DNA of 63,693 bases, from positions 1 through 63,693 of the IMG/VR virus record IMGVR_UViG_3300018954_000002, one strand, 5' to 3'. How positions within the stretch are numbered: the stretch's first letter is position 1; the number at the start of each line of letters is the position of its first letter. The notes beneath the pieces were generated by a model, which searched no databases, had not been told where the DNA came from, and saw only the letters and a list, made by a program, of their open reading frames with translations. The translations under genes were made by a program, and so were the position numbers. The DNA comes from a virus. Shown in pieces: positions 1,816 through 63,538 of this stretch.

Positions 1816-3206
1816 GTGGCGGGTCCTTTCTCTGCGAATGCGTCGAACAGGGTGCCGATCCCGGTCGGCTCCGGCGGTGGCTTCGGCCGCTCGCGTGCGG
1901 CAGCGAGCTGGCCAGGGTCCGTGGTACGCCACCCGGCAAGGCGGCAGTAGTCGGCGGACATGTCGACGCTGATTCCGTGCCGGCCGTAGGCGTGGGCGAC
2001 GAGCGCCGTAGTGCCGGTGCCTCCGAACGGGTCCAGGACGACCGAGGGGCGGGTGGGTGCGCTGGTGTCGGGGCAGGCGCACGCCTCTCCGACAATCGTG
2101 TGCAGCGACCGGTTCGTCACCTGCTGGCCGATAATCTCGCCGACATTGCGAGCACCGCCGCGAGTGCCGTCCGTCTGTCGAGTCCATCCGGCCTCGCGCT
2201 GCACCGAGGCGACCGGACGTCGGCCCTCGCCGCATGCCGTGCAGATCCCCGACGGTGACCAGCCCTGGATGATGCGGCGAGGCCACTCCATCGGGAACGC
2301 GGCGAAGTGATCCACTCCCAGCCCGGCGGGCACCTTGAACGGCTGCGTGGGAATGGTCCAGACGGAGCCGGGCAGCTTCCCGAGGGGGTTGACGAACTGC
2401 GCCGGGTTGAGCGTGTTCGGTGAGCCGACGGAGAAATGATCTCCCGCGTTATACGCCCTCCCCGCCCGCGCCACGCTGACCGGCGAGTGCGCCTCTCGGA
2501 TGGTGTCGACGGCGGAAAAGTACCGGGGCGACTTGACCAGGTGAAACGCCGTCTCGTGCGTGGTCATGCTGCCGTCAAGCAGCCGCTCGCCCTCGTCGAC
2601 GGTCAGCGTTCCTGCGGCGACCTGTTCGAGCACCGCCCGCACCAGTTCGGCAGGAGGCGGCGCCTCAGGTGCCCACCGGGACAGCCAAAACCACTGCTCG
2701 TGCGAGCGCCGCACCCGGTCCGTGACGCTCTCCGGTAGCCCGTTCGGCTTCGACCAGATCACTTCGGCGCGCAGGATCAGGCCGAGATCGTCGATGCACC
2801 GGATCGCGTACCGCCACGGCAGGCCGATCAGGGACTTGCCGGGCACCCCATCGACCGAGGACGGCCGAGACCTTCGGTGACCGCCGCGCGCCCCCTGTGC
2901 CATGTGCTCGTCCCGTCGCAGTCCCACGCCAGGATTGAGCCCCCCTGAGCCGGCGTATTTGTCGCCCAGATTGATCCACATCGACCCAGTCGGCTTGAGC
3001 ACCCGCATCCACTCCCGGGTGCACTCGATCAGGCTGTCGATGTACGCGGCAGGCGTCGGCTCGGCGCCGATCTGCCCGTCGTAGTGCTCGCCGCCGTCGG
3101 TGTAGGAGCGCAGGGCCCAGTACGGCGGCGAGGTGACGATCAGGTCGGCGGATTCGTCGGCGAGGGGCAGGAGCCGAGCGTCGCCCCGGATCACCTGCGC
3201 GGTCAT
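1812..3206 (-). CDS. Beta-class DNA methyltransferase (N4-cytosine or N6-adenine)
   Basis: Motif IV TSPPYW is N-terminal and motif I DPFGGTGTT is C-terminal. A Cys-rich insertion (CTACGEG...CACP) lies between them. Confidence 0.85.
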   Translation of the reverse strand: MTAQVIRGDARLLPLADESADLIVTSPPYWALRSYTDGGEHYDGQIGAEPTPAAYIDSLIECTREWMRVLKPTGSMWINLGDKYAGSGGLNPGVGLRRDEHMAQGARGGHRRSRPSSVDGVPGKSLIGLPWRYAIRCIDDLGLILRAEVIWSKPNGLPESVTDRVRRSHEQWFWLSRWAPEAPPPAELVRAVLEQVAAGTLTVDEGERLLDGSMTTHETAFHLVKSPRYFSAVDTIREAHSPVSVARAGRAYNAGDHFSVGSPNTLNPAQFVNPLGKLPGSVWTIPTQPFKVPAGLGVDHFAAFPMEWPRRIIQGWSPSGICTACGEGRRPVASVQREAGWTRQTDGTRGGARNVGEIIGQQVTNRSLHTIVGEACACPDTSAPTRPSVVLDPFGGTGTTALVAHAYGRHGISVDMSADYCRLAGWRTTDPGQLAAARERPKPPPEPTGIGTLFDAFAEKGPAT

Positions 3207-3379
3207 GCGGGACGCCGGGATCGCGCGATCCGGCGCTTGCGCGCCGCGAGGTACTCGTGAAGCGCCGAAGCCACGAAGTCCGACACCGAAACGTCGTCAG
3301 CCTTGGCGGCTGCTTCCGCTTCCTGCCAGACCTCGCGGCTTCGGCGCGAGACGTAGATCTGTCGTCGAGTGGGGGCCAT
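3203..3379 (-). CDS. Ribbon-helix-helix (CopG/Arc-like) DNA-binding protein, 58 aa
   Basis: Not in the ORF track (under 60 aa). Hand translation: MAPTRRQIYVSRRSREVWQEAEAAAKADDVSVSDFVASALHEYLAARKRRIARSRRPA. ATGA overlap with the methylase start. Confidence 0.65.
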   Translation of the reverse strand: MAPTRRQIYVSRRSREVWQEAEAAAKADDVSVSDFVASALHEYLAARKRRIARSRRPA

Positions 3380-3415
3380 GTGTGTAGCTTACGGCATAGG
3401 AACCTACACACACAA
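3380..3415 (-). promoter_or_regulatory. Leaderless sigma70-like promoter with an overlapping inverted repeat
   Basis: On the minus strand: TTGTGT, 18 nt, TAAGCT, 6 nt, then ATG(3379). A 9-bp inverted repeat TGTGTGTAG/CTACACACA (3379-3387 and 3404-3412) spans it. Confidence 0.5.
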
Positions 3416-3421
3416 GCCCGG

Positions 3422-3910
3422 TTACTCCTTCAGGCGTGACTCCCGCTGACGTACCGCCGTGGCCGCCCCGGCGACGCAGCCGGCCCATGCCGCCCGCAGC
3501 CCGCGCGTGCCCACCGGCACCGAGCCCCACACGACGCAGCTCGCCGCCGCCCGGGACACGGCTACCGCCGCCCGGTCGTCGTCCACCGTGAACTCCGTGT
3601 AGCAGATGCTGCCGCGCAACATCTGCTCCCCGGTCGGAGCAGGGTCAGGCGACACCATGCCGAGCGCGAGCCCGTGCGTTGCGGGCACGGGCAGGTCGAG
3701 CAACCAGTGCCGTTCGATCTGCATGGCGGCGACGTTGACGCACACGACGAGCAACTGCGACGCGAGATGCATCCGCTCCTCGGTGTGCACCAGGTGCGGC
3801 ATGGACAGGTCGACCTGCCAGACGTCGACGACTCCGGGGACGGTGCCGACGTCGGGCAGCCGGACCGCCCGGCCGGCGACCCCTTCGGCGACCAGCGTGA
3901 CGCCGCTCAT
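3422..3910 (-). CDS. Hypothetical protein (162 aa)
   Basis: Protein-like ORF. The start overlaps the stop of the upstream gene by 1 nt. Confidence 0.6.
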   Translation of the reverse strand: MSGVTLVAEGVAGRAVRLPDVGTVPGVVDVWQVDLSMPHLVHTEERMHLASQLLVVCVNVAAMQIERHWLLDLPVPATHGLALGMVSPDPAPTGEQMLRGSICYTEFTVDDDRAAVAVSRAAASCVVWGSVPVGTRGLRAAWAGCVAGAATAVRQRESRLKE

Positions 3911-9562: not shown

Positions 9563-9991
9563 TCACGCCTCCTGTTCGTTGCGGGTCGCGGTGGCCATCA
9601 GCCTGACGACCTGGCGCCGGGCGTTGTCCACGGCCACGATCGCCTGAGTCAGCGCGGCGTACACCTGCTCGGGCGTGCGGTGCTCGACGCGGGTCAGGTT
9701 GGTGACCACGCCGGCCGCGGCGGCGAGTTCGGTCCGGGCGCGGGCGGTCAGTGCTCGCCGGTCGTGCAGCGGCACGAGGACCCGCGGCGAGTGCGGGCCC
9801 CCGGCGAGCGGGCGAAGCGACGTCCGGTTGTACCGCTCGCCGTCGGAGGTCACGACCATGGTCTGCGTGATGTTGACGATGGTGACCTCGGGGCCGACCG
9901 CGTCGCGCCCGATCGGCGACTGGGACAACCTGAGGTCGACGGCGCGGTCGCCCTTCTGGGGCCACCGGCCCCCGGTCGCACCCTGGCTCAT
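9563..9991 (-). CDS. Hypothetical protein (142 aa)
   Basis: ATG at 9991 in an ATGA overlap with the ParB-like gene stop. The upstream part of the 508-aa track ORF is junk. Confidence 0.55.
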   Translation of the reverse strand: MSQGATGGRWPQKGDRAVDLRLSQSPIGRDAVGPEVTIVNITQTMVVTSDGERYNRTSLRPLAGGPHSPRVLVPLHDRRALTARARTELAAAAGVVTNLTRVEHRTPEQVYAALTQAIVAVDNARRQVVRLMATATRNEQEA

Positions 9992-10815
9992 TTCGGCTGC
10001 GGGAAGTTGTCGTTGGTCAGTTCGCCGCGGGCGATCTGGATGCGGTCCATCGACTCCCCCGCCCGGAATGCATTCCACGACCGGACGAACAGTGCCAGCT
10101 GCTCGGGCCGCGTGACCCGGTCTACCCGCACCCGGGCCATCCGGTTGCGCAGCGCCAGCACCGGCGAGCCGCCCGGGAGGTTGGCGCCGGAAACGTACTG
10201 GTCGAAGAACTGGTGTGTGAACTCTGCGTCGATCCGGTTGAACAGATAGTGGGCGACACCGGCTGGAGCCCCGACTCCGAGTCCGCGATTCTGGCAGTCC
10301 GTCGCCCGCTTGGACGCTGCGTCGTACCGCTCGGCCTCGGCCCGGTAGCGGTGCATGATCTCCGACGTGGTGGGGGCGAAGGTCCCACCGCCGCCCATGT
10401 AAAGCCCGACGTCCCACATCAGCGACCACCGCACGATCGCGGCCCCGCGCATCCGGTCGTGCGCGCCGGCGATCCGCAGCGCGTCGCCGGCGGACCGCGC
10501 CGCCCCGGAGTCGATGACCTGCATGGCCTCGGTGGGTACGTCGTAGGCGATGGTCATGTGCACGCCAGGGAACGCTGGGTCCTGCTCTCCGGCCAGAATC
10601 ACGGCGCGCATCCGGTTCTGCCCGTCGATCAGTGTGCCGGCGATGTCGACCTTGATCGTCTCGCCGGTGTTGGGGTTCCAGTTGCCGCCGAGCATGTCGC
10701 GGGCGAAGCGCGCGATGCGCGCCTCCTTGGGCCTGCGGTTGTTCTCGGCGTTGCGGCCAAGGATCTGTTTGGCTCTCTGCGGCGTGATCAGTTCGTGGTT
10801 GAAGGTGATGCTCAC
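9988..10815 (-). CDS. ParB N-terminal-domain (DGQ[N/H]R) protein
   Basis: ...KVDIAGTLIDGQNRMRAVILAG... is characteristic of the ParB/sulfiredoxin-like nuclease fold. Confidence 0.65.
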   Translation of the reverse strand: MSITFNHELITPQRAKQILGRNAENNRRPKEARIARFARDMLGGNWNPNTGETIKVDIAGTLIDGQNRMRAVILAGEQDPAFPGVHMTIAYDVPTEAMQVIDSGAARSAGDALRIAGAHDRMRGAAIVRWSLMWDVGLYMGGGGTFAPTTSEIMHRYRAEAERYDAASKRATDCQNRGLGVGAPAGVAHYLFNRIDAEFTHQFFDQYVSGANLPGGSPVLALRNRMARVRVDRVTRPEQLALFVRSWNAFRAGESMDRIQIARGELTNDNFPQPK

Positions 10816-11449: not shown

Positions 11450-11479
11450 AGTCTATATCCATGTATGGATAAGTGTCAA
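11450..11479 (-). promoter_or_regulatory. Promoter-operator cassette P1
   Basis: On the minus strand: AACTCTTGACAC, -35 TTGACA (11479-11474), 18 nt, -10 TAGACT (11455-11450). The spacer is filled by the palindrome TATCCA-N4-TGGATA (11456-11471). Confidence 0.75.
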
Positions 11480-11519
11480 GAGTTGCGGCGAGCCGCGGCG
11501 GGCATCTCGTGGCCGCAGG

Positions 11520-12756: not shown

Positions 12757-12786
12757 AGTCTATATCCATGCGTGGATAAGTGTCAA
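12757..12786 (-). promoter_or_regulatory. Promoter-operator cassette P2
   Basis: -35 TTGACA (12786-12781), 18 nt, -10 TAGACT (12762-12757). Palindrome TATCCA-TGCG-TGGATA at 12763-12778. Confidence 0.75.
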
Positions 12787-12820
12787 GGGTTCCGAGGGAG
12801 GGAGATTGCGCCAACGCGAA

Positions 12821-14450: not shown

Positions 14451-14678
14451 TCACCGCCCGGCCAGTGCAGCGGCGTGGTCGTCGTCGAGTGTGGCGAAGC
14501 GCAGGGTCCCGTAGCTGACCTCGCCGGTCAGCTTGACGCCCTTCTCCACGCGCCCGTTCGGCCACAGGACGTCGCACACCGTCTTGCGCTGGCGGACGAT
14601 CTGACCGCGGACGACGAGGTCGTCCTGCGGGTCGGTCCACTCGGCTGCGACGTAGACGGGGAACTCTTTGCGGGCCAT
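14451..14678 (-). CDS. Hypothetical protein (75 aa)
   Basis: AAGGAG RBS before the ATG at 14678. First gene downstream of P3. Confidence 0.6.
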   Translation of the reverse strand: MARKEFPVYVAAEWTDPQDDLVVRGQIVRQRKTVCDVLWPNGRVEKGVKLTGEVSYGTLRFATLDDDHAAALAGR

Positions 14679-14718
14679 CTGGACCACTCCTTGGTGTCGT
14701 TCGTTCCTGACACCACCT

Positions 14719-14748
14719 ACGCTATATCCACACGTGGATAAGTGTCAA
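14719..14748 (-). promoter_or_regulatory. Promoter-operator cassette P3
   Basis: -35 TTGACA (14748-14743), 18 nt, -10 TAGCGT (14724-14719). Palindrome TATCCA-CACG-TGGATA at 14725-14740. Confidence 0.7.
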
Positions 14749-15008
14749 GAGTTCTGCGCCACGGAGTTTCCCGGCAGTCCCGCGATCCTGTATGCGTACG
14801 CCTGCACGCTGTCGACGTACACCCGCCGGTGCCCACGGAGCACTCGCCCGCGAACGTCCTCCGTCACCCGGTGCGCCCGGGTCCACGCGAACTCCAGCTC
14901 TCCCAGCGAACAGAGCGCGCGAATTTCGCGAAGCGAAACACCGAGCGTTTTCGCAGCCTGTCCCGTGGTCATCGTCTCGCGGTCGCCCCGCGTGGCTTCG
15001 CTTGTCAT
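14745..15008 (-). CDS. MerR/excisionase-type HTH DNA-binding protein
   Basis: MTTGQAAKTLGVSLREIRALCSLGEL. The start is ambiguous (ATG at 15008 or 14972). The stop lies inside the P3 -35 box. Confidence 0.6.
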   Translation of the reverse strand: MTSEATRGDRETMTTGQAAKTLGVSLREIRALCSLGELEFAWTRAHRVTEDVRGRVLRGHRRVYVDSVQAYAYRIAGLPGNSVAQNS

Positions 15009-15556
15009 GTGGTCAAAGTAGCAAGACGAACGAAAGTCTGCCATGCTGCGAACCATGACCCCGCTGACTTCGCTTCGTTCGCTTCGTTCGCTCCCGTTCG
15101 CTCTGGCTTCGCTGTTCGTCGTCGTGAGCGTCATCGCTGCGTTCGCATACGCGATCAACGCATGGCAGGTCTACGGCTTCGCTGCGAACGTGTGGCAGCT
15201 GCCGGCGGTCCTGTGCGTCTTCGCCGCGCTCGTCGCCGACGCTCTTTCGCTCGCCGGACTCTTCACCACGTACATCCTTCGCAGAGCGAAGCTGCACGTC
15301 CGCGCGTACGCATGGTTCGTCTTCCTCAGCATGACTTCGCTGTCCATCCTCGCGGCCGAGTCGTTCGCGAAGTGGCGTCAGCTCCCGCAAAGTTCGCGGG
15401 ATCTCTTCGCCAACGAACCCTCGCTCATCGAAGCGGACAGCGTCGCTGGCGGGGTTCTCGACGACGCGAACGTGGCCGCTGCCGTGATCGCCCCTGCGCT
15501 CGCTCTCGCGGTGCACCTGCTCATCATCTGCGTTCGCCACGCGGTTCCGGCTTCGC
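14887..15556. repeat. TTCGC/GCGAA-dense island 1
   Basis: About 29 copies counted by eye in about 670 bp. Background elsewhere is about 2-3 per kb. Includes the 9-bp tandem TTCGCTTCG at 15070-15095. Confidence 0.7.
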
Positions 15557-16047
15557 GGGACGGCGCGACCCCGGCGGGGCACCCTGACTTCATCGCCTGC
15601 CCGCTCTGCGGCGGCGACGCCATCTCGCCCACGGTGCTCGCGGAGCACATGGCCCGGCGGCACCCGGCTCCCTCCGTGGCCCAAGGGCCTCCCCGCGCCG
15701 TGCGTCCCGTCCGGACCGAGCAGGCACCGGAGCCCGACCGGCCTGTTCCGGTCGTGCGCGAGCAGGCCGAAAAGGTCCAGGTCATGCCCCCTGCGCCCCG
15801 GCGCGGAGGACGCCGGGGCGGAATCAGCGCAGTGAACAAGGCGAACGCTGTTGCCCGGGTCATCGCCAAGGAGATGACCGCAGCCGAGGTGGCCGCCCTG
15901 CTGGACTGCTCGACGCGCGCCGTCGAACAGTGGGTTAAGGCGTACCGCGAGCAGCAGGCGGGCCAGCCCCTCGCCGCGATGCGCACGTTGACCGACGGAT
16001 CCGGGCAGGTCAACGGCCACAAGCCGGAAGAGACGGTGAGCCTGTGA
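15043..16047 (+). CDS. DUF2637-like polytopic membrane protein with a C-terminal HTH
   Basis: Four hydrophobic helices in the N-terminal half, a CPLCGG Cys/His (zinc-finger-like) motif, and C-terminal MTAAEVAALLDCSTRAVEQWV. This gene type usually sits next to FtsK-like genes in actinomycete conjugative elements. Confidence 0.6.
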   Translation: MLRTMTPLTSLRSLRSLPFALASLFVVVSVIAAFAYAINAWQVYGFAANVWQLPAVLCVFAALVADALSLAGLFTTYILRRAKLHVRAYAWFVFLSMTSLSILAAESFAKWRQLPQSSRDLFANEPSLIEADSVAGGVLDDANVAAAVIAPALALAVHLLIICVRHAVPASRDGATPAGHPDFIACPLCGGDAISPTVLAEHMARRHPAPSVAQGPPRAVRPVRTEQAPEPDRPVPVVREQAEKVQVMPPAPRRGGRRGGISAVNKANAVARVIAKEMTAAEVAALLDCSTRAVEQWVKAYREQQAGQPLAAMRTLTDGSGQVNGHKPEETVSL

Positions 16048-16087
16048 GCACCCGCGAGGGCCCACGGATGCGCACGGTGAGTGATAT

Positions 16088-16287
16088 TGCAAGTGCAAGT
16101 GCCGCCGCGCCCTTTTCAGACGCGCCGGTACCTAGGGGGGGAGATGCAAAGGATCTTGCAAGCCGTCCGGTATGGACCGATTGCAAGGCGCGGTGCAAGT
16201 CCGGTTTGATCAGGTTGCAAGCCCCGCTGCAAGCCCTGCAAGTCACGCAGCGTAGGGATCCCGGACCTGCAAACGATCTACTGCAAG
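16088..16287 (+). repeat. Array of 11 TGCAAG/TGCAAA hexamers upstream of the traB-like gene
   Basis: Copies start at 16088, 16094, 16145, 16157, 16182, 16194, 16216, 16228, 16237, 16268 and 16282. Three pairs are 12 bp apart. Confidence 0.85.
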
Positions 16288-16303
16288 CGAGGGGGGCAGG
16301 GCC

Positions 16304-18505
16304 ATGGCGGTGAAGGCAGACGAGCGCCGCGAGCGCGAGCAGGGCGGCCACACCCGGCCGACCAGCAAGCGGCACGTCCCGTTCCTCGCGTCCTTCCTGG
16401 TCGCGTTCGTCGTCATCCCGGTCACGTTCGCGATCTCCCACGCCATCTACCTCTGGGACCCCGCGACCGGCCTCATGCTCGCGCACGGATGGTTCATCAC
16501 CGGCTGCACCGTCGCGTTGGTCGCCGTCGGGATCGGCCTGTTCCACGCCAAGCGCACCACGTTCCTGATCAAACACGTCGCGATCACCGTGTTCCTGTTC
16601 GGCGCGGCCGGCGACGTCATCACCCTCGCCGGATTCCGGCATCGCTTCCTCGACGTCGTGTGGTTCTTCGCGACCCTGATCGTGTGGCTGTCGTGGATGC
16701 TCTACCGCGTCGACGCCTTCCGTGCGAAGGCGACCGGCGAATCGAGCGACTCGTGGGGCGACGTCATCGGCCTTGCGAAGTCGCGGCCGAAGAAGGTTCG
16801 CACGACGCCCAGCGAAGTCATCATCGACGTCGAGCACGGCCCCGGCGAAACGATCGGCGACGTCCGCAACGCAGCGAAGGAACTGGAGGACAAGGCCGGT
16901 GCCATCGTCGGGCGAACGACCGTCATCGCGGGCGAACGTGGCGGGTCTTCGCAGATTCGCTTGACGATGGCGGACCCCTTCGACGAGTGGCGAAAGTTCC
17001 CCGGCCTTTCGCACCCCGGCGGTTCGTTCGCTCTGCCGTTTCGCACCGCGTACTACTCAACCGGCGACGACCAGTGGTTCGGTTTCGCTCGCGGCACCCT
17101 CGCTTCGCCGCTGACGAACTTCGTCGCGCCGCAGGCGACCTTCGTCGGCATCGTCGGCACCACCGGCGCAGGCAAGTCCGGCGAACAGAACAACATCGCC
17201 GCCGAGGGGCTTTCGCGGTGCGACGCGATCCTCTGCTGGGTCGACGCGGAGAAGCTGTTCCAGAACGCCGGGTGGTGCCTGGACATGCTCGGCATGGCGG
17301 CCCCGGACCGGCCGAAGGCGGCACGGCTTTCGCGGGCGCTCAAAAAGCTGGCCGAGCACCGGGTGCAGTTGTTCGGTCAGATGTCGCTCGACGCCGCCCT
17401 CGACCCCGACAACCCCGACGCCATCGGTGGCCGGGAGTGGACGCCGGAGGTCGCCCGGGAGACCGGGGAAGCCGCCGTGCTCGTCATCATGGACGAGGCC
17501 GACACGTTCCTGCAGAAAGGCGAATGGGACTGGCTCGGCAAGCGGGGCCGCTCCCTCGGGATCTTCCTGTGCCCGTCCGTGCCCCGGGCGTCGACACAAG
17601 AGGTGCCGGCGGCCTTCCGCGGCAGCATCGCCGCGTGGAAGACGTTCGCGATCGGCGACAAGTACAGCGGCGAGTTCACCCTGTCGCAGTCGACCCGCGA
17701 CGCCGGGGCGGACCCGGAGTCGCTGCGCATGCCGGGCGGCCACTGGTTCGACCTCGCGCCCGGCGTCGACCCCCGGCTGTGGCCGCTGCTCTGCCGATCG
17801 TTCTGGTCGGACGGCCGGATGCTGCGACAGATGGTCCTCGCCGCCCGCCAGCGGTTCACGCCGATGGACTTCACCGACGCGGCGAAGGCCGCGATGGGGC
17901 AGGACTACGAGGTGTGCACCCCCGCCGCGGTGATGGCTGTACGCGCGCCCGAGGTGCGCAACGAAGGCGACGGGGCCGCCGCGCCGGCGGACCCGCAGAC
18001 GACGCAGGAGACTCCCGGACCCGCCGGACCTGCCGACAGCAGAGGAGGAGATGACGTGGACACCGAGCCCGTCGAACGCACAGAAGAGGGCGCCCGCGCC
18101 CCGGAGGGGGATGATGGCGTCGTCGCCACTCTCTCTCACCCGGGCCTGCCGGGCGCCGCCGAGTCCGACCCCCGCGCGCCGATCGAGCGCGGCACCACGG
18201 GAGTCGAGGTGCCGGAGGACAAGCCGCCCGCCCCATCGAGAGAACAGGAAGACGCCGACCTCGACCACGCCCTGGTGAAGCTGTACCAGGACGACGTGTC
18301 CGAGTTCACCCCGGAGGACGTCGCCGATCGGCAGCAGTACGCGATGCAGCCGTGGACGATGTCGCGCCGGCTCGGTGCCCTCGCGGCGTCCGAGACGATC
18401 AAACCGCCCGGCCTCAAGGTCGAGCGACTCCGCGCCGGGCGGTACCTGTTGGTCCGCGTCGGCCCGTCCCCCCGCCCCACCAACGTCCCGCGAAAGGGTG
18501 AGTAG
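16304..18505 (+). CDS. traB: FtsK/SpoIIIE-family DNA translocase, TraB-like
   Basis: N-terminal TM helices, Walker A GTTGAGKS, Walker B VLVIMDEAD, an acidic linker and a C-terminal winged-helix-like tail. 733 aa. Confidence 0.85.
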   Translation: MAVKADERREREQGGHTRPTSKRHVPFLASFLVAFVVIPVTFAISHAIYLWDPATGLMLAHGWFITGCTVALVAVGIGLFHAKRTTFLIKHVAITVFLFGAAGDVITLAGFRHRFLDVVWFFATLIVWLSWMLYRVDAFRAKATGESSDSWGDVIGLAKSRPKKVRTTPSEVIIDVEHGPGETIGDVRNAAKELEDKAGAIVGRTTVIAGERGGSSQIRLTMADPFDEWRKFPGLSHPGGSFALPFRTAYYSTGDDQWFGFARGTLASPLTNFVAPQATFVGIVGTTGAGKSGEQNNIAAEGLSRCDAILCWVDAEKLFQNAGWCLDMLGMAAPDRPKAARLSRALKKLAEHRVQLFGQMSLDAALDPDNPDAIGGREWTPEVARETGEAAVLVIMDEADTFLQKGEWDWLGKRGRSLGIFLCPSVPRASTQEVPAAFRGSIAAWKTFAIGDKYSGEFTLSQSTRDAGADPESLRMPGGHWFDLAPGVDPRLWPLLCRSFWSDGRMLRQMVLAARQRFTPMDFTDAAKAAMGQDYEVCTPAAVMAVRAPEVRNEGDGAAAPADPQTTQETPGPAGPADSRGGDDVDTEPVERTEEGARAPEGDDGVVATLSHPGLPGAAESDPRAPIERGTTGVEVPEDKPPAPSREQEDADLDHALVKLYQDDVSEFTPEDVADRQQYAMQPWTMSRRLGALAASETIKPPGLKVERLRAGRYLLVRVGPSPRPTNVPRKGE
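16724..17333. repeat. TTCGC/GCGAA-dense island 2 (inside traB)
   Basis: About 20 copies by eye. GCGAA dominates from 16724 to 16932 (8 of 9). TTCGC dominates from 16948 to 17329 (9 of 11). Confidence 0.65.
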
Positions 18506-18508
18506 CCG

Positions 18509-18889
18509 ATGCCGCAGATGCCCCCGGCCAATCAGTCGACCAAGTACAACGAAGAGATCGAGGCGCTCGGCGTCGCCGTCCGCGCTGCGGCGATCGCCGG
18601 CCACGACTTCCTGTCCCCACTCGCCGCGTCGCTGTCTCGGCGCCTGGCGAAGGGTCTGCGTTCCGAGGGGCTGGACGGCGGCAACTTCGCCTCTCGGTTC
18701 CTGCGCGGCGGGGACGCCGCCCGGACCGCGATGTGGATCACCGAGCCGATGCGGGCCGCCGCGGCGGACCTCTACAACTGCTCCGTGAACATGACCACCT
18801 TCGTCCGGCGGTTCCGGGTCGGCTACGTCGACGCGATCATCCAGGCACGGAACACGGCGAAGGACGACGACATCGTCGTCGTCCGCTAA
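18509..18889 (+). CDS. Hypothetical protein (126 aa)
   Basis: Starts 4 nt after the traB stop. Protein-like composition. Confidence 0.6.
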   Translation: MPQMPPANQSTKYNEEIEALGVAVRAAAIAGHDFLSPLAASLSRRLAKGLRSEGLDGGNFASRFLRGGDAARTAMWITEPMRAAAADLYNCSVNMTTFVRRFRVGYVDAIIQARNTAKDDDIVVVR

Positions 18890-42551: not shown

Positions 42552-44123
42552 TCACCCCAGACTCGATCCGATGGAGTACGAGCCGCCAAGCCACTCGACC
42601 TCCTCGCCCGCCGCACGGGCCAGCGTCACCGCGTACGTCGGCGAGGCGTCGCCGCCCTCGCCCGCGCGCTGCCACCGCCACTCGTCGCCGAACGTGTACT
42701 TCGCCAGCCCCGCGATGGAGTCGTTAAGTTCCGGCTGGTCGATGTGCCTGATCCTACGGTCCGGGCGATCAGATTCGGTCGTCCCGACCTCGCCCGTCTC
42801 CAAGAAGAACTGCCGACACGCCTTCGACACGTCGGGGCCCTGCATCACCACGAGTTCGGTGTCGACGTTCGCCTCGGCCAGCGCCCGGCGTAGCGGGGTG
42901 ATGATCGGGGCCGCCGGGCCGTGCGCCGCGATGCCGATCGAGCACGGGCCCATGCGCTCCGCGACGTCCACCAGGGCGGGCACCGTCCACGACAGGCCCG
43001 GCTCGCGGGCGACCAACTCGACGTAGGTGTCGCCGTTGACGTCGAGCGCCGCCATGCCGATCGAGGCCACCGACTGATCCGGCGCCGCGTCCACGCCGAA
43101 CGCGATCGGGTCCAGGTAGCGGCCCGACACGTTGGGCACCCGCAGGCCGCGCCACGTCGCCTCGGTGATCACGCCCCACTTCGCCACGCGCGCGTCCGGC
43201 TCCCACCCGAGGTACTCGGCGCAGAAGTCGATCAGGTCCATCGCCTCGAAGTCGGAGCGGATCGCCGCCTCGTCGACCGTGTGGCCGAGCGCTGGCATGC
43301 ACGACCACCACGTGTCCGGGTCCGCCGGGTCCATGTCCGGGTCCGCCGACCACTCGAAGTACGCCACCCGCGAGCGCACCCCGGCCTGCACCCGGTGCCG
43401 GCCGTTCTGCCGCTTGGTGTGCAGGTACGGCCACGTCCCGGGCATCTTGCGGGACAGCCCCGGGATCATCGACGCAATCCAGAGCTGGCGCCACTTGCGG
43501 GTCAGCATGGCAGGGCGCAGACCCAGTTCGGTCCGCATGTCCTCCTTCGCCCACGCCTCGTCGATCACGGCCAGGTCGATCGTGTCACCGGTACCGCCGG
43601 TCTTCGCCGTGGTGCTGCCCGGCCCCCACGTCGACCGGTTCGGCCATTTGATCTGCTCGAAGTTGGTCCGCAGCCGCACGTCGATCTGCGGGGCGAACGC
43701 CGACTCCTTGAGCCGCTCGACGTGGATGTCGCGCCACTTCTGTTTCGCGTTGTCGGCGGTCTGCGCGGTGTAGAGGACCCGCTGCGGGCCGGGGTCGACG
43801 ACCGGGCGGCCGAGTTCCTCGCGTACCCACTGCGCCAGCTTCGCGTTGATCGCCGTGCACCGGTGGGTCATCAGGGGGAACATAAACTCCGTCTTGCCCT
43901 GCTGCCGGTTGATGATGAGCACGGCCTCGTCGTACGCGAAGTACCCCGTGTCCGGGTCGATCTCCAGCGCGACGTCGGCGATCAGGTGTTGGTGCGGAAG
44001 GAACGGCTTGCCGAGCTTCGCGGCGACCTTCGCCAGCCCGGGGCCGAGCGTCGGCCGATCCGGGGTCCGCGGCGTGGCGAACCGGGGCGGGCAGCGCAGG
44101 TCGGCCGCGGTCAGGGTGGTCAT
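42552..44123 (-). CDS. Terminase large subunit
   Basis: 523 aa from the ATG at 44123. ...LIINRQQGKTEF...DLAVIDEAW... ATPase motifs. Confidence 0.85.
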   Translation of the reverse strand: MTTLTAADLRCPPRFATPRTPDRPTLGPGLAKVAAKLGKPFLPHQHLIADVALEIDPDTGYFAYDEAVLIINRQQGKTEFMFPLMTHRCTAINAKLAQWVREELGRPVVDPGPQRVLYTAQTADNAKQKWRDIHVERLKESAFAPQIDVRLRTNFEQIKWPNRSTWGPGSTTAKTGGTGDTIDLAVIDEAWAKEDMRTELGLRPAMLTRKWRQLWIASMIPGLSRKMPGTWPYLHTKRQNGRHRVQAGVRSRVAYFEWSADPDMDPADPDTWWSCMPALGHTVDEAAIRSDFEAMDLIDFCAEYLGWEPDARVAKWGVITEATWRGLRVPNVSGRYLDPIAFGVDAAPDQSVASIGMAALDVNGDTYVELVAREPGLSWTVPALVDVAERMGPCSIGIAAHGPAAPIITPLRRALAEANVDTELVVMQGPDVSKACRQFFLETGEVGTTESDRPDRRIRHIDQPELNDSIAGLAKYTFGDEWRWQRAGEGGDASPTYAVTLARAAGEEVEWLGGSYSIGSSLG

Positions 44124-48375: not shown

Positions 48376-48409
48376 AAAAAAACACCCTGAGTGATACCCA
48401 CCCAGGGTG
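48376..48409 (-). terminator. Canonical intrinsic terminator
   Basis: On the minus strand: CACCCTGGGTG-GGTAT-CACTCAGGGTG, followed by TTTTTTT. Confidence 0.8.
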
Positions 48410-48447
48410 CCCGTGCATAAGTGTCAAGAGTTATGCGGTATGGCGCG

Positions 48448-62497: not shown

Positions 62498-62907
62498 CAC
62501 GGAGCCTCGGCGGTGCCCGGCTCGACGACGGCAGGCCATTCGACGTCCGGGTCGGGCATCTCGCCTACTCGGACCACGTTGCCGGCCTCGTCGACGCCAG
62601 TGGCGCCGCGCGCCGGGATCGGCCGCGGCGGGCGCGCGGCGTCGATCGCACGCTGACGTTCTGCTCCGGCCTCGATGGCGGCCAGTCGCTCGCGGTACCG
62701 CTGCTCGGCGGTGCGCTTCACGATCGGCTCGCCGGCCCACCGGACGATGTCCTCGGACATCTCCAGCGCGAGCGACGCGCCGGAGCGGAAGGCGAGGGCG
62801 AGGAGGTACGCCACCTCTGAGCGGTTGAACGTCTCCCGCTCGTTGAGCTGCCGCTGCACTACGCACCCGGAGCACCCGGGGCAGTCCGTGGCCAGGTGGA
62901 TCGTCAT
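62497..62907 (-). CDS. Hypothetical protein with an N-terminal Cys cluster (136 aa)
   Basis: MTIHLATDCPGCSGCVV... ATGA overlap upstream. Confidence 0.55.
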   Translation of the reverse strand: MTIHLATDCPGCSGCVVQRQLNERETFNRSEVAYLLALAFRSGASLALEMSEDIVRWAGEPIVKRTAEQRYRERLAAIEAGAERQRAIDAARPPRPIPARGATGVDEAGNVVRVGEMPDPDVEWPAVVEPGTAEAP

Positions 62908-63134
62908 GAGGCCACCCTCCGGGCGCTGCCGACGACCCTGTCGGCCATGTATTTGCGCAGTTCCTCGCGGGGGTAGCGGATGGAGGACCCGTGGCCGTCG
63001 CCGAGGCGGGCGTAAGGTGGGCCGCTGCCGCGCTTGCGCCACTCGAACAGCGTGCGCGGTTGGACCTGGAGCACCTCGCCGACTTGCTCGACGGTCATCA
63101 TCGGCGGGTACGCGATCAATGGGTCGTCGGTCAT
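62904..63134 (-). CDS. Excisionase/MerR-type HTH DNA-binding protein (76 aa)
   Basis: MMTVEQVGEVLQVQPRTLFEWRKRGSGPPYARLG. Confidence 0.65.
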   Translation of the reverse strand: MTDDPLIAYPPMMTVEQVGEVLQVQPRTLFEWRKRGSGPPYARLGDGHGSSIRYPREELRKYMADRVVGSARRVAS

Positions 63135-63168
63135 GCGTGGAATCCTATCGCATTTTGCGGAAGAAGGC

Positions 63169-63205
63169 GCGTCGCCCCGGCTCCCCCTCGAAGCCGGGGC
63201 GACGC
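63169..63205 (-). terminator. Hairpin terminator (14-bp stem)
   Basis: GCGTCGCCCCGGCT-loop-AGCCGGGGCGACGC. Confidence 0.65.
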
Positions 63206-63217
63206 GATCAGAATCGG

Positions 63218-63538
63218 TCAGGCGGTCGGTCGGAACGGCTTCCTGTACGGCGGCACCTGATCCGGGTACAACCGCTCCAGCGGGGCCCGGCGCCCGAGCC
63301 GCAGCAGGAACTCGGCCTCGCTGTCGGCGGTCGCCGGGCAGGCGTACCCCCGGTGGCTGCGTTCGAGCGCCGCGGCGTGCGGCGCGGAGTCGGCAACGCC
63401 AGTCATCAGGCACCCGAGGCAGCCCCACCGGTACTCGGTCGTCTCGGGCTGCTGTTCGCATCCGGGGTGCCGGTCGAACCCGCCGGCCGCTGCCGGCGGG
63501 CGCAGCGGAACACCACACCCGGCGGCGCAGGCGGTCAC
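63218..63538 (-). CDS. Cys-rich hypothetical protein (106 aa)
   Basis: GTG at 63538 in a GTGA overlap with the junction-spanning CDS stop. Confidence 0.45.
   Translation of the reverse strand: MTACAAGCGVPLRPPAAAGGFDRHPGCEQQPETTEYRWGCLGCLMTGVADSAPHAAALERSHRGYACPATADSEAEFLLRLGRRAPLERLYPDQVPPYRKPFRPTA

What the first reader, a model, noticed from the sequence alone, without database searches (positions are those of the whole stretch)
14887..15556. TTCGC/GCGAA-dense island 1 spans two divergent genes and their promoter region and is written with rare codons
By eye I count about 29 TTCGC or GCGAA pentamers in about 670 bp. Control stretches, such as the tape measure gene, have about 2-3 per kb.

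The island covers three elements:
- the 5' two-thirds of the minus-strand HTH gene;
- the divergent intergenic region;
- the first half of the plus-strand DUF2637-like gene.

The motif falls in all three codon phases. It is often built from T-ending codons that are otherwise rare in this GC3-rich genome, for example ACT TCG CTT CGT TCG CTT CGT TCG on the plus strand and GGT GTT TCG CTT CGC GAA ATT CGC on the minus strand. That argues for selection on the DNA rather than on the proteins.

Orientation switches near 14935-14945. To the left, 5 of 6 copies are GCGAA. To the right, 18 of 23 are TTCGC. The perfect palindrome CGCGAA-T-TTCGCG (14917-14930) lies immediately to the left of that switch. 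A 9-bp tandem TTCGCTTCG sits at 15070-15095.
Basis: seen in the sequence. Interest (0 to 1): 0.8.

Follow-up and report, generated by a model that had tools for sequence, protein, structure and literature searches.

The report
Pentamer arrays bracketing a phage traB operon
A tailed actinophage carries a plasmid-type DNA-pumping gene (traB), and two stretches at the start of that operon are packed with dozens of copies of the 5-base word TTCGC written through protein-coding sequence, most likely as a landing pad for a small DNA-coating regulator; the arrangement is conserved across a whole family of uncultured phages and has not been described.

Summary
There are 29 TTCGC/GCGAA copies in 14887-15556 (30 in 14850-15556), against a background of 2.7-3.0 per kb. 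Simulated sequence never exceeds 10 per 670 bp. The excess survives amino-acid-preserving codon nulls in all three genes it touches.

A second island (22 copies, 16427-17329) lies inside the 5' third of a plasmid-type traB gene. The window is a tailed phage. About 25 related loci keep the same two-island layout around a membrane-protein/traB operon. Across them the motif is T-K-C-G-Y: most loci use TTCGC, and some add or switch to TGCGC/TTGCG. Both islands of one element always share the word.

Island 1 is centred on a small divergent gene. That gene encodes a BldC/Xis-type winged-helix protein with an enlarged wing (hhalign 95% to phage BldC homologues). Proteins of this type coat short direct repeats cooperatively. 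Thirteen of 14 loci with this protein have TTCGC islands.

My best reading is an oversized operator array that controls the translocase operon. The reader protein is inferred, not shown. TTCGC islands also occur where this protein is absent, and no protein column or flank gene tracks the word. TraB's own recognition helix does not track it either. A separate TGCAAG array next to traB is the better classical clt candidate.

The parts
14850..15556 (.). Island 1: 30 copies of TTCGC/GCGAA. It spans the 5' two-thirds of the HTH gene, the 31-bp divergent intergenic core and the first ~170 codons of the membrane-protein gene.
   Evidence: 30 observed vs 2.0 expected, Poisson 1e-24. (codon nulls). (simulated maximum 10 per 670 bp).
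14745..15011 (-). Gene for an 88-aa BldC/Xis-type winged-helix protein of the 'long-wing' subfamily. It has an invariant G-H-R-R wing motif and ~13 extra wing residues. This is the candidate reader of the word.
   Evidence: Pfam HTH_17 E 3.1e-5, below the gathering score. TIGR01764 excisionase domain E 8.9e-6. Family profile vs PDB: Xis Gp37 E 0.011, BldC 6AMA E 0.041. hhalign 95% probability, E 3e-8, to phage BldC homologues, which themselves match BldC at E 2.7e-29.
14918..14930 (.). Inverted repeat CGCGAA-T-TTCGCG inside the HTH gene. It is two words placed back to back.
   Evidence: read from the sequence. Convergent spacing of 3 bp (TTCGCGAA) recurs 15 times across relatives.
15002..15047 (.). 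Motif-free core that holds both start codons (HTH ATG at 15011 on the minus strand, membrane-protein ATG at 15043) and presumably the back-to-back promoters. It is flanked immediately by word arrays on both sides.
   Evidence: the same layout appears in L005, L006, L007, L015, L019. The consensus promoter scan finds nothing, so the promoters are inferred.
15069..15112 (+). Densest sub-array: five same-strand TTCGC copies spaced 9, 9, 10 and 11 bp (9-bp tandem TTCGCTTCG). It encodes the ...TSLRSLRSLPFAL... tail of the membrane protein.
   Evidence: positions. (TRF: 15069-15102, period 9, 3.7 copies). (equivalent tandem runs in relatives).
15043..16047 (+). Gene for a 334-aa protein with an N-terminal multi-pass membrane domain, a C2H2-like C-x2-C-x12-H-x4-H motif and a C-terminal HTH_23 domain. 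It is the first gene of the translocase operon and occurs in all relatives.
   Evidence: HTH_23 E 2.2e-6; no DUF2637 hit. (present in 17 of 18 loci; its recognition helix does not track the word).
16087..16290 (+). Compact TGCAAG direct-repeat array directly upstream of the traB start. It holds 9 of the window's 12 same-strand TGCAAG copies, and four form (N)TTGCAAG palindromes. It is a separate element and the better classical clt/TRS or traB-operator candidate.
   Evidence: Equivalent TG[C/A/G]AA-type arrays abut the traB start or stop in most relatives.
16304..18505 (+). traB: 733-aa FtsK/SpoIIIE-type double-stranded DNA translocase of the Streptomyces plasmid TraB type, with N-terminal membrane helices, a Walker A motif and a C-terminal wHTH.
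   Evidence: NCBIfam NF041214 plasmid_TraB, E 1.8e-45 over nearly its full length but below the equivalog cut-off. ~25% identity to annotated Streptomyces plasmid traB genes. 45 relatives found.
16427..17333 (.). Island 2: 22 copies of the same word inside traB codons ~40-345. Polarity flips near 16940: mostly GCGAA to the left, mostly TTCGC to the right.
   Evidence: 22 observed vs 2.6 expected, Poisson 1e-13. (22 vs 6.4). (left half antisense 8 vs 2.2; right half sense 8 vs 2.0).
18509..18889 (+). Conserved 126-aa gene immediately downstream of traB. It is part of the module in nearly all relatives. Its function is unknown.
   Evidence: 17 of 18 loci. No Pfam or NCBIfam hit.

Best explanation
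The two islands are cis-acting protein-binding arrays written at the DNA level through coding sequence. Each has 20-30 copies of a 5-bp recognition word (TTCGC here; T-K-C-G-Y across the family). Together they bracket the start of a phage-borne membrane-protein/traB DNA-translocase operon.

The most likely reader in this window is the 88-aa BldC/Xis-type winged-helix protein, whose gene sits inside island 1 and is transcribed divergently from the operon.

By analogy with BldC, lambda/Pukovnik Xis, D29 Gp36 and RdfS, monomers would dock on individual words and polymerise cooperatively along the DNA. This would form an extended nucleoprotein coat over the back-to-back promoters and the 5' parts of both genes. 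A second coat would form inside traB. It could bridge to the first or act as a roadblock.

The predicted outcome is autoregulation plus tight, switch-like control of a potentially toxic translocase operon, most likely repression. That is the role the kor repressors play for kil/tra genes on Streptomyces plasmids.

Shown:
- The enrichment itself.
- DNA-level selection on the word.
- Conservation of the two-island layout.
- The same word in both islands of each element.
- Homology of the protein to BldC-type proteins.
- Co-occurrence of that protein with the word.

Inferred:
- That this protein binds the word.
- That it polymerises on the DNA.
- That the effect is repression.
For: DNA-level selection:
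- The excess survives amino-acid-preserving codon nulls in three genes, and both orientations are enriched.
- In traB it exceeds the null in 18 of 20 related loci.

Conservation:
- The two-island layout (about -1700 to -700, and +300 to +1000 relative to the traB start) recurs in every locus with enough flank, down to 33% TraB identity.

A specific recognition word:
- Over 20 loci only TTCGC (5.1x), TGCGC (2.4x), TTCGT (2.4x), TGCGT (1.6x) and TTGCG (1.9x) are enriched. All other single-base neighbours are at 0.5-1.2x.
- The word changes in both islands together: L001 uses TTGCG, L016 TGCGCC, L027-29 TGCGCA.

Position:
- The arrays flank a motif-free promoter core and are centred on the HTH gene, in the window and in relatives.

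The protein:
- It is a BldC/Xis-type wHTH.
- 13 of 14 loci that encode this long-wing subfamily have TTCG(C) islands.
- One of these is L059, a 1-kb contig with 17 copies in the 250 bp upstream of the gene.
- Three family members are tandem fusions of two such domains, as expected for readers of adjacent direct repeats.
- Canonical BldC homologues sit next to traB in five further relatives.

Precedents:
- BldC binds 9-bp direct repeats head-to-tail as filaments of variable length. One of its targets is smeA-sffA, which encodes a membrane protein plus an FtsK-like translocase (PMC5859096).
- Actinophage D29 Gp36 binds direct repeats with a 5-bp GC-rich core (GCGGC), including repeats inside genes, and represses downstream genes (PMC12266134).
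- RdfS is an oligomeric HTH_17 protein encoded at the head of a conjugation operon (PMC11963761).
- SpdA binds sites inside its own gene on Streptomyces plasmids (PMC4170104).
- The sub-array at 15069-15112 has 9-11 bp spacing, about one helical turn.
Against: - No binding data exist. The link between protein and word is correlative, and the loci are phylogenetically related.
- L010 has a full-strength TTCGC island pair (56 observed vs 6 expected) but no long-wing HTH within 6 kb. It has only a canonical BldC homologue downstream of traB.
- L024 has the long-wing HTH but only TTGCG/TGCGC words and no TTCGC excess.
- L001, L016 and L023 have islands but no BldC-type gene in the fetched flanks.
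- The canonical BldC homologues have identical contact residues in a TTCGC locus (L010) and in TGCGCA loci (L027-29).
- TTCGC is enriched in nearly every locus whichever HTH is present. By parsimony this points to a universal or host-encoded reader.
- Family-wide spacing shows no single helical period; the peaks are at 5, 12-13 and 19 bp.
- Orientation is mixed in many relatives, which fits poorly with strict head-to-tail filaments.
- The residue equivalent to BldC Arg30 is Ala in the window's protein.
- Fifty copies over 1.6 kb is far beyond any characterised operator of this family.
Confidence: 0.45

Rival explanations
1. The islands are the cis-acting substrate of the DNA-translocation machinery itself. 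They would be an extended clt-like loading or orientation zone, read by TraB (C-terminal wHTH) and/or by the membrane protein's C-terminal HTH. The oppositely oriented halves of each island would load motors, or tether the phage DNA at the membrane pore, for conjugation-like transfer or intramycelial spread.
For: - The islands are tied to the membrane-protein/traB pair in every relative, whatever the neighbouring genes are.
- TTCGC is near-universal, and TraB, the membrane protein and p126 are the only universal flank proteins.
- TraB-family motors recognise short repeated words at clt (PMC4170104, summarising Vogelmann et al. 2011).
- A real polarity flip occurs inside traB in the window, L005 and L006.
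Against: - The TraB recognition helix (T-x-S-R-R-L) is the same in TTCGC, TTGCG and TGCGCC elements. It is altered (S-E-R-F, S-K-R-F, S-R-W-L) in distant loci that keep TTCGC.
- No TraB column separates the word classes.
- The membrane protein's recognition helix is highly variable and does not track the word. RTAQLW occurs with TTCGC, TTGCG and TGCGCC.
- Classical TRS are 8-bp repeats in a short, mostly non-coding clt. A separate compact TG[C/A/G]AA array abutting traB fits that description better.
- The word shows no genome-wide strand skew.
- The polarity flip is not conserved in more distant relatives.
Confidence: 0.2
2. The words are read by a protein I could not see. It could be encoded elsewhere in the ~60-kb genomes, or be a conserved host nucleoid-associated protein. 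The islands would then serve as a silencing, partition (centromere-like) or membrane/nucleoid-tethering site, not as an operator for the local HTH.
For: - TTCGC enrichment is near-universal and independent of which HTH is nearby.
- L010 and L027-29 share gene content but differ in word class, with no visible swapped DNA-binding gene.
- No flank gene family partitions with word class.
- Small actinobacterial nucleoid proteins that read 4-6-bp words are known, for example Gbn with GATC(W)T (PMC9239103, abstract).
Against: - A host factor does not easily explain why the word differs between closely related phages while both islands of one phage change together.
- No ParA/ParB pair is detectable next to the islands.
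- The arrays are centred on the HTH gene and its promoter, and 13 of 14 HTH-bearing loci are TTCGC-type.
Confidence: 0.2
3. Island 1 is an iteron-type replication origin located at the major divergent transcription point of the genome. Island 2 would be an auxiliary or incompatibility (handcuffing) site.
For: - In L001 the equivalent of island 1 is a textbook intergenic array of ~10 copies of an 11-bp unit, cCGACGCAACG.
- Origins embedded in coding sequence are common in phages (general knowledge).
- GC content dips to 0.63-0.65 over island 1.
Against: - No initiator gene is identifiable next to the islands.
- There is no AT-rich unwinding element. No 300-bp window falls below 0.63 GC, and the dip comes from the TT of the word itself.
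- The layout is tied to traB, not to the replication genes (DnaN-like, ERF, RuvC-like), which lie 7-14 kb away.
- The second island inside traB is universal, which an origin model does not predict.
Confidence: 0.07
4. The islands have no function. They would be a by-product of pentamer/nonamer slippage plus the amino-acid composition of membrane segments (Phe-Ala, Ser-Leu-Arg).
For: - Tandem TTCGCTTCGC runs exist and could expand by slippage.
- Every Phe-Ala dipeptide gives TTC-GCN, so the protein sequence alone raises the expectation to 6-8 per island.
Against: - Observed counts are 2.5-5 times the amino-acid-preserving expectation.
- Copies are dispersed, in all three codon phases and on both strands.
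- The non-membrane HTH gene is also enriched (9 vs 1.7).
- The layout is conserved across about 25 loci whose synonymous sites are saturated.
- Only specific single-base variants of the word are enriched.
Confidence: 0.03

Closest known systems
BldC of Streptomyces and its direct-repeat operators (e.g. the smeA-sffA promoter)
   Same: - A small MerR-like/Xis-like wHTH with no dimerisation or effector domain.
- The G-H-R-R wing motif aligns with BldC's.
- BldC binds variable numbers of short direct repeats head-to-tail and forms filaments.
- A characterised target operon encodes a small membrane protein plus an FtsK/SpoIIIE-type translocase, the same gene pair as here (PMC5859096).
- True BldC homologues sit next to traB in five relatives.
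   Different: - BldC units are AT-rich (AATTxxxxC), 9 bp long, with 2-4 copies in promoters. Here the word is GC-rich, 5 bp, with 20-30 copies per island, mostly inside coding sequence, in both orientations and with no fixed period.
- The window's protein has a ~13-residue wing insertion.
- It lacks the Arg30 equivalent.
- Binding is untested.
Mycobacteriophage D29 Gp36 (an Xis/BldC-like repressor) and its GCGGC direct repeats
   Same: - An actinophage-encoded HTH_17-type wHTH.
- It recognises direct repeats with a 5-bp GC-rich core, some inside coding regions (gp1, gp59.2).
- It oligomerises weakly and represses downstream genes (PMC12266134).
   Different: - Gp36 sites come in sets of 2-4 with 13-19 bp spacers. 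Here there are ~50 copies in two islands.
- The word differs.
- The target here is a conjugation-type translocase operon.
- There is no experimental evidence for this system.
clt/TRS of Streptomyces conjugative plasmids (TraB recognition sequences)
   Same: - Short repeated words next to a traB gene of the same protein family.
- The words differ between related elements.
   Different: - TRS are 8-bp repeats in a compact locus read by the TraB wHTH (PMC4170104).
- The islands are 5-bp words spread over 0.7-0.9 kb of coding DNA, and they do not co-vary with the TraB wHTH.
- The compact TGCAAG array at 16087-16290 resembles clt more closely.
kil-kor control and SpdA/sps of Streptomyces plasmids; RdfS of Mesorhizobium ICEs
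   Same: - A small DNA-binding protein encoded at, or divergent from, the transfer operon controls transfer genes. For RdfS, see PMC11963761.
- SpdA binds sites inside its own coding region (PMC4170104).
   Different: - KorA/TraR are GntR-type dimers with palindromic operators.
- sps is a 12-bp palindrome present in 1-3 copies.
- None of these systems uses dozens of pentamers or a second array inside the translocase gene.

Membership tests
BldC/Xis-type (HTH_17, MerR-like) oligomerising wHTH with direct-repeat sites | Small single-domain winged helix-turn-helix of the excisionase/HTH_17 type, with no coiled-coil dimerisation or effector domain | tested here: met
   88 aa. Pfam HTH_17 E 3.1e-5 (24.6 bits, below the 27-bit gathering score). 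TIGR01764 E 8.9e-6. Family profile vs PDB: Xis Gp37 E 0.011, BldC E 0.041, co-linear. hhalign 95.1%, E 3.3e-8, to phage BldC homologues, which match BldC 6AMA at E 2.7e-29. The single-sequence AF2 model was unusable (pLDDT 51).
BldC/Xis-type (HTH_17, MerR-like) oligomerising wHTH with direct-repeat sites | Conserved DNA-contact residues: Arg on the recognition helix and His in the wing (BldC Arg30, His46) | tested here: inconclusive
   G-H-R-R is invariant in all 8 aligned family members and aligns with BldC G-G-H-R-R. The Arg30-equivalent column is Arg in 7 of 8 members but Ala in the window's protein, which has an Arg one position earlier.
BldC/Xis-type (HTH_17, MerR-like) oligomerising wHTH with direct-repeat sites | Sites are same-strand direct repeats about one helical turn apart | tested here: inconclusive
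   The window sub-array 15069-15112 has spacings of 9, 9, 10 and 11 bp. Over 476 sites in 11 loci, direct-neighbour spacing peaks at 5, 12-13 and 19 bp with no single period, and orientations are mixed.
BldC/Xis-type (HTH_17, MerR-like) oligomerising wHTH with direct-repeat sites | The protein binds the repeats cooperatively | not testable with these tools
   Only co-occurrence is available. 13 of 14 loci with the long-wing HTH are TTCG(C)-type. Exceptions are L024 (HTH present, other word) and L010 (TTCGC, no long-wing HTH).
Streptomyces clt / TraB recognition sequences (TRS) | Located next to a TraB-family translocase gene | tested here: met
   traB is at 16304-18505. The islands lie 0.75-1.45 kb upstream of it and inside its 5' third.
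Streptomyces clt / TraB recognition sequences (TRS) | 8-bp repeats in a compact locus (PMC4170104) | tested here: not met
   The word is 5 bp with no flanking information. It is spread over 0.7 and 0.9 kb, mostly in coding sequence. The TGCAAG array at 16087-16290 does meet this description.
Streptomyces clt / TraB recognition sequences (TRS) | Specificity resides in the TraB C-terminal wHTH, so word and helix should co-vary | tested here: not met
   The helix T-x-S-R-R-L is shared by TTCGC, TTGCG and TGCGCC elements, and variant helices keep TTCGC. No discriminating column was found among ~1000 (best p 7e-4, in a linker).
KOPS/SRS-type motor-orienting sequences | Genome-wide strand-skewed distribution | tested here: not met
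   Outside the islands there are 2.7-3.0 copies per kb with no consistent strand bias (19/21, 10/12, 35/21, 33/21).
Iteron-type replication origin | Iterons beside an initiator gene and an AT-rich unwinding element | tested here: not met
   No initiator was identified among the adjacent genes. The minimum GC over the region in 300-bp windows is 0.63.
Partition centromere (parS/parC-type) | Repeat array beside a ParA/ParB or ParM/ParR operon | not tested
   No Par protein was detected next to the islands. The ORF at 9988-10815 has no Pfam hit and lies outside the flanks fetched for relatives.

The most novel reading that the evidence does not exclude
The T-K-C-G-Y islands are a new kind of transfer locus for a phage-borne TraB motor. 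Two oppositely oriented arrays would recruit the membrane-anchored HTH protein and TraB hexamers to the phage chromosome. The phage genome could then be pumped as double-stranded DNA between hyphal compartments or cells without making virions. The BldC-like protein would act as the architectural switch between the silent and transfer-competent states. This would be a phage that also spreads by Streptomyces-type conjugation, using a clt unlike any described.
Probability: 0.15. Interest if true: 0.85.

Novelty: new variant of a known kind. Interest (0 to 1): 0.62.

Why it matters
If the reading is right, this is the most extreme known case of an oligomerising winged-helix (BldC/Xis-type) protein using a 5-bp word. 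About 50 copies overprint two genes, and the codon choice and even the N-terminal peptide of a membrane protein are bent to fit the DNA signal.

It offers a clean natural system for studying three things:
- how nucleoprotein filaments are nucleated and bounded;
- how a recognition word drifts (T to G at one position) in concert at two separate sites;
- how much coding sequence can be co-opted for this purpose.

It also draws attention to a family of ~45 uncultured high-GC tailed phages that carry a complete Streptomyces-plasmid-type TraB module: membrane protein, TraB, a conserved partner gene and a clt-like array. That raises the testable question of whether some actinophages move between hyphal compartments by conjugation-like DNA pumping.

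In practice, the islands are a specific, easily scanned signature for finding such elements in metagenomes.

Tried and rejected
- DNA and protein BLAST of the region against 50,697 GenBank phages found no match. There is no cultured relative.
- The genome-contig scan with the TraB profile found nothing.
- The single-sequence AlphaFold model of the HTH was too poor (pLDDT 51) to use for fold search.
- The word-indexed homologue search for the HTH returned only the query itself.
- Locus search with the HTH alignment either failed for lack of conserved stretches or returned generic short-wing Xis-like proteins without arrays.
- Column-by-column association of word class with TraB residues and membrane-protein residues found nothing in a DNA-binding domain. 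The best membrane-protein columns (p 2.5e-4) lie in a transmembrane helix and after the HTH.
- Presence/absence of every flank gene family against word class gave no partition.
- The L010 vs L027-29 comparison, between close relatives with different words, showed no swapped DNA-binding gene.
- An extended motif was rejected: flanks carry <0.15 bits.
- An RNA-level explanation was rejected: both strands are used, and there is no Rfam hit at E<=1.
- A KOPS-like skew was rejected.
- The consensus sigma-70 promoter and terminator scan found nothing in 14600-16400, so promoter positions remain inferred.
- The minor TTCGC cluster at 43546-44077 (9 copies) is within the simulated chance range.
- Vogelmann et al. 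2011 (PMC3117647) is not held in the library. TRS properties are therefore cited from PMC4170104.
Full report
**What is there**

The window is a 63.7-kb, 70% GC tailed phage. It encodes a major head protein, a head protease, a large terminase and a tape-measure protein.

The stretch 14887-15556 contains exactly 29 TTCGC/GCGAA pentamers, with one more at 14850. Outside the islands the density is 2.7-3.0 per kb. TTCGC is the most enriched 5-mer in the stretch (30 observed vs 2.0 expected, Poisson 1e-24). In 200 first-order Markov simulations of the window, no 670-bp window held more than 10 copies.

A second island of 22 copies lies at 16427-17329 (Poisson 1e-13).
- The orientation counts are exact.
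- The inverted repeat is at 14918-14930.
- The 9-bp tandem is at 15069-15102.

**Is it more than protein composition?**

I kept each amino-acid sequence and redrew the codons, either from the genome's own usage or by permuting synonymous codons within the gene. All the results below have p<1/2000:

| Segment | Observed | Expected |
|---|---|---|
| HTH gene | 9 | 1.7-2.8 |
| Membrane-protein codons 1-172 | 21 | 8.4-9.8 |
| traB codons 40-350 | 22 | 6.4-8.2 |

The 3' parts of the same genes, the tape-measure gene and the capsid gene show no excess.

Amino-acid content therefore explains part of the signal, because every Phe-Ala is TTC-GCN. It does not explain most of it. All three codon phases are used, and GC3 falls to 0.78-0.81 in island 1.

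**The genes**

- Island 1 covers the 5' two-thirds of a minus-strand 88-aa HTH gene (14745-15011), a 31-bp intergenic core, and the first ~170 codons of a plus-strand 334-aa gene (15043-16047).
- The 334-aa protein has N-terminal membrane helices and a C-terminal HTH_23 domain. Pfam gives no DUF2637 hit.
- After a 256-bp spacer comes a 733-aa ORF (16304-18505). It matches NCBIfam plasmid_TraB over nearly its full length (E 1.8e-45, below the equivalog cut-off). It is ~25% identical to annotated Streptomyces plasmid traB genes.
- Island 2 lies inside traB codons ~40-345.

**Relatives**

No cultured phage matches. Metagenomes contain 45 TraB relatives, many on 40-76-kb phage-sized contigs. I fetched about 25 loci.

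An unbiased scan for locally clustered 5-mers recovers the same architecture in every locus with enough flank. One island lies about 0.7-1.7 kb upstream of the traB start, and one lies at about +300 to +1000 inside traB. This holds down to 33% TraB identity.

The two islands of any one element always use the same word, but the word is not always TTCGC:
- L001 uses TTGCG. Its island 1 is a textbook intergenic array of ~10 copies of cCGACGCAACG.
- L016 uses TGCGCC.
- L027-L029 use TGCGC, often as the palindrome TGCGCA (15 observed vs 0.2 expected).

Summed over 20 loci, only five words are enriched: TTCGC (5.1x), TGCGC (2.4x), TTCGT (2.4x), TGCGT (1.6x) and TTGCG (1.9x). Every other single-base neighbour sits at 0.5-1.2x. 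The family motif is therefore T-K-C-G-Y.

476 TTCGC sites from 11 loci carry no flanking information beyond a weak C at -1, and they show no single spacing period. With the amino-acid-preserving null, TTCGC in traB is in excess in 18 of 20 loci, including most loci whose dominant word is TGCGC. The G-type words are in excess only in their own class.

This pattern is a specific short word under DNA-level selection at two conserved places, which drifts in concert at both. That is the signature of a protein recognition site.

**Anatomy around the promoter**

In the window and in relatives, tandem runs such as TTCGCTTCGCTTCGC pack both sides of a ~45-bp motif-free core. The core holds both start codons and, by inference, the back-to-back promoters. 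The N-terminal tail of the membrane protein (TSLRSLRSL here; FASLR and TSLRRTSLRE in relatives) is in effect written by the repeats.

Both orientations exceed the null in every segment. Inside the single traB gene the polarity flips: antisense 8 vs 2.2 expected in codons 40-215, and sense 8 vs 2.0 in codons 215-350. Polarity is therefore not only a coding artefact. The flip is shared by L005 and L006 but not by distant relatives. The word shows no genome-wide strand skew.

**Who reads it?**

*TraB.* Its C-terminal wHTH recognition helix (T-x-S-R-R-L) is identical in TTCGC, TTGCG and TGCGCC elements. It is altered in distant elements that keep TTCGC. No TraB column separates the word classes. 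This speaks against TraB.

*The membrane protein's HTH.* Its recognition helix is very variable. The same helix (RTAQLW) occurs with all three words. This speaks against it.

*The local 88-aa HTH.* It belongs to a small family: 39 representatives among 1.84 billion proteins. The family has an invariant G-H-R-R motif. A family profile hits mycobacteriophage Xis Gp37 and BldC in the PDB only marginally, but co-linearly. It aligns to a profile of canonical BldC-like phage proteins with 95% hhalign probability (E 3e-8) and a 13-residue wing insertion. Those canonical proteins match BldC itself at E 2.7e-29, and they sit one or two genes downstream of traB in L009, L010 and L027-L029.
- Of the 14 loci that encode the long-wing HTH, 13 have TTCG(C) islands. 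Among them are two fetched through the HTH itself, which again turned out to be divergent from a membrane-protein/traB pair (L057, L058).
- A third locus fetched through the HTH is the 1-kb contig L059, which has 17 copies in the 250 bp upstream of the gene.
- Three family members are tandem fusions of two such domains.

**Precedents**

- BldC is a MerR/Xis-like wHTH that binds 9-bp direct repeats head-to-tail as filaments of variable length. One of its targets is smeA-sffA, which encodes a small membrane protein plus an FtsK-like translocase (PMC5859096).
- Actinophage D29 Gp36 is a BldC/Xis-like protein that binds direct repeats with a 5-bp GC-rich core (GCGGC), including repeats inside genes, and represses downstream genes (PMC12266134).
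- RdfS is an oligomeric HTH_17 protein at the head of a conjugation operon (PMC11963761).
- SpdA of Streptomyces plasmids binds sites inside its own gene, and TraB assembles on 8-bp TRS repeats at clt (PMC4170104).

- L024 has the long-wing HTH but only G-type words and no TTCGC excess.
- L010 has full-strength TTCGC islands, yet only a canonical BldC homologue.
- That homologue has the same contact residues as those of the TGCGCA loci L027-29.
- L001, L016 and L023 show no BldC-type gene in the flanks I could fetch.
- No flank gene family partitions with word class, and comparing L010 with L027-29 reveals no swapped DNA-binding gene.
- Because TTCGC is nearly universal, a universal or host-encoded reader cannot be excluded.

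**Best explanation and rivals**

I commit to the following. The islands are oversized operator-like arrays on which a BldC/Xis-type wHTH, here the product of 14745-15011, polymerises. This would autoregulate the HTH gene and control, most likely repress, the membrane-protein/traB operon. The array inside traB would act as a second anchor for bridging, or as a roadblock. My confidence is 0.45 in this specific mechanism, and about 0.9 that the islands are protein-binding DNA under selection.

Rivals:
- An extended clt-like loading zone for TraB or the membrane protein (0.2).
- An unseen or host reader with a silencing, partition or tethering role (0.2).
- An iteron origin (0.07).
- A non-functional by-product (0.03).

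A separate compact array of same-strand TGCAAG repeats at 16087-16290, directly upstream of traB, has counterparts in most relatives. These are TG[C/A/G]AA-type words that abut the traB start or stop. This array fits the classical clt/TRS description better than the islands do.

**Novelty**

Short-repeat arrays for oligomerising wHTH proteins are a known kind. Four things are new here:
- the scale: ~50 copies of a bare pentamer;
- the overprinting of two genes, and the second array inside the translocase gene;
- the concerted T/G drift of the word;
- the setting: a family of uncultured phages carrying a complete plasmid-type TraB module.

My literature searches found no description of this.

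Noticed in passing
window 16087-16290: A compact array of same-strand TGCAAG repeats (9 of the window's 12 copies; four form NTTGCAAG palindromes) fills the spacer directly upstream of the traB start codon. Most relatives have an equivalent ~200-bp array of a TG[C/A/G]AA-type word (TGCAA, TGAAA, TGGAA, also CAATT/GAATT) abutting either the traB start or the traB stop. This is the best candidate for a classical clt/TRS or a traB operator.
   Followed up: partly
window 11450-11490, 12757-12797, 14719-14759 (partial copies near 48400-48435 and 13069): A ~40-bp repeat occurs three times. On the minus strand it reads TTGACAC-TTATCCA(N4)TGGATA-TAGCG. That is a -35-like hexamer, a 17-18-nt spacer holding a palindrome (TATCCAnnnnTGGATA), and a -10-like element. 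Each copy sits upstream of a block of leftward genes. These look like three near-identical early promoters that share one operator.
   Followed up: partly
window 15598-15663 (residues 186-207 of the 334-aa membrane protein): A C-x2-C-x12-H-x4-H spacing (ACPLCGGDAISPTVLAEHMARRH), typical of a C2H2 zinc finger, lies between the membrane domain and the C-terminal HTH. It is not conserved in relatives such as L015.
   Followed up: no
window 62907-63230, minus strand: A second, conventional HTH_17/excisionase-type protein (Pfam E 3.3e-10) lies at the right end of the window, next to a 593-aa ORF with a weak DUF3987 hit. No integrase was identified in the parts I scanned.
   Followed up: no
L009 1919-2644; L010/L017 8704-8961; L027 +2801..3400, L028 +3538..3774 and L029 +2266..2997 relative to the traB start: Five related phages carry a true BldC homologue (profile vs PDB 6AMA, E 2.7e-29) one or two genes downstream of traB. 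Phage-borne copies of a host developmental regulator beside a DNA translocase are interesting in themselves.
   Followed up: partly
proteins P0047, P0049, P0053 (L059 245-715 encodes P0053): Three members of the long-wing HTH family are tandem fusions of two wHTH domains in one chain. On the 1-kb contig L059, 17 GCGAA/TTCGC copies fill the 250 bp upstream of such a gene.
   Followed up: partly
window 15043-15120, and the equivalent 5' ends in L005, L015, L019: The N-terminal tail of the membrane protein (TSLRSLRSLPFAL; FASLRTAKLRR; TSLRRTSLREMP) appears to be dictated by the DNA repeats rather than the reverse. It is a clear case of a regulatory signal shaping a peptide.
   Followed up: partly
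window 43546-44077 (inside the large-terminase gene): A minor cluster of 9 TTCGC/GCGAA copies in ~530 bp. This is within the range seen in Markov simulations (maximum 10 per 670 bp), so it is probably chance.
   Followed up: yes
L001 1-700: Long runs of C (21 overlapping CCCCCCC heptamers) at the very start of this viral contig. This is probably an assembly or contig-end artefact.
   Followed up: no
L016/L023, about -2500 to -1200 relative to traB (minus strand): In two relatives that lack the BldC-type HTH, the divergent slot upstream of the operon is occupied by a ~240-aa membrane protein with an Ala/Pro/Lys-rich tail.
   Followed up: no
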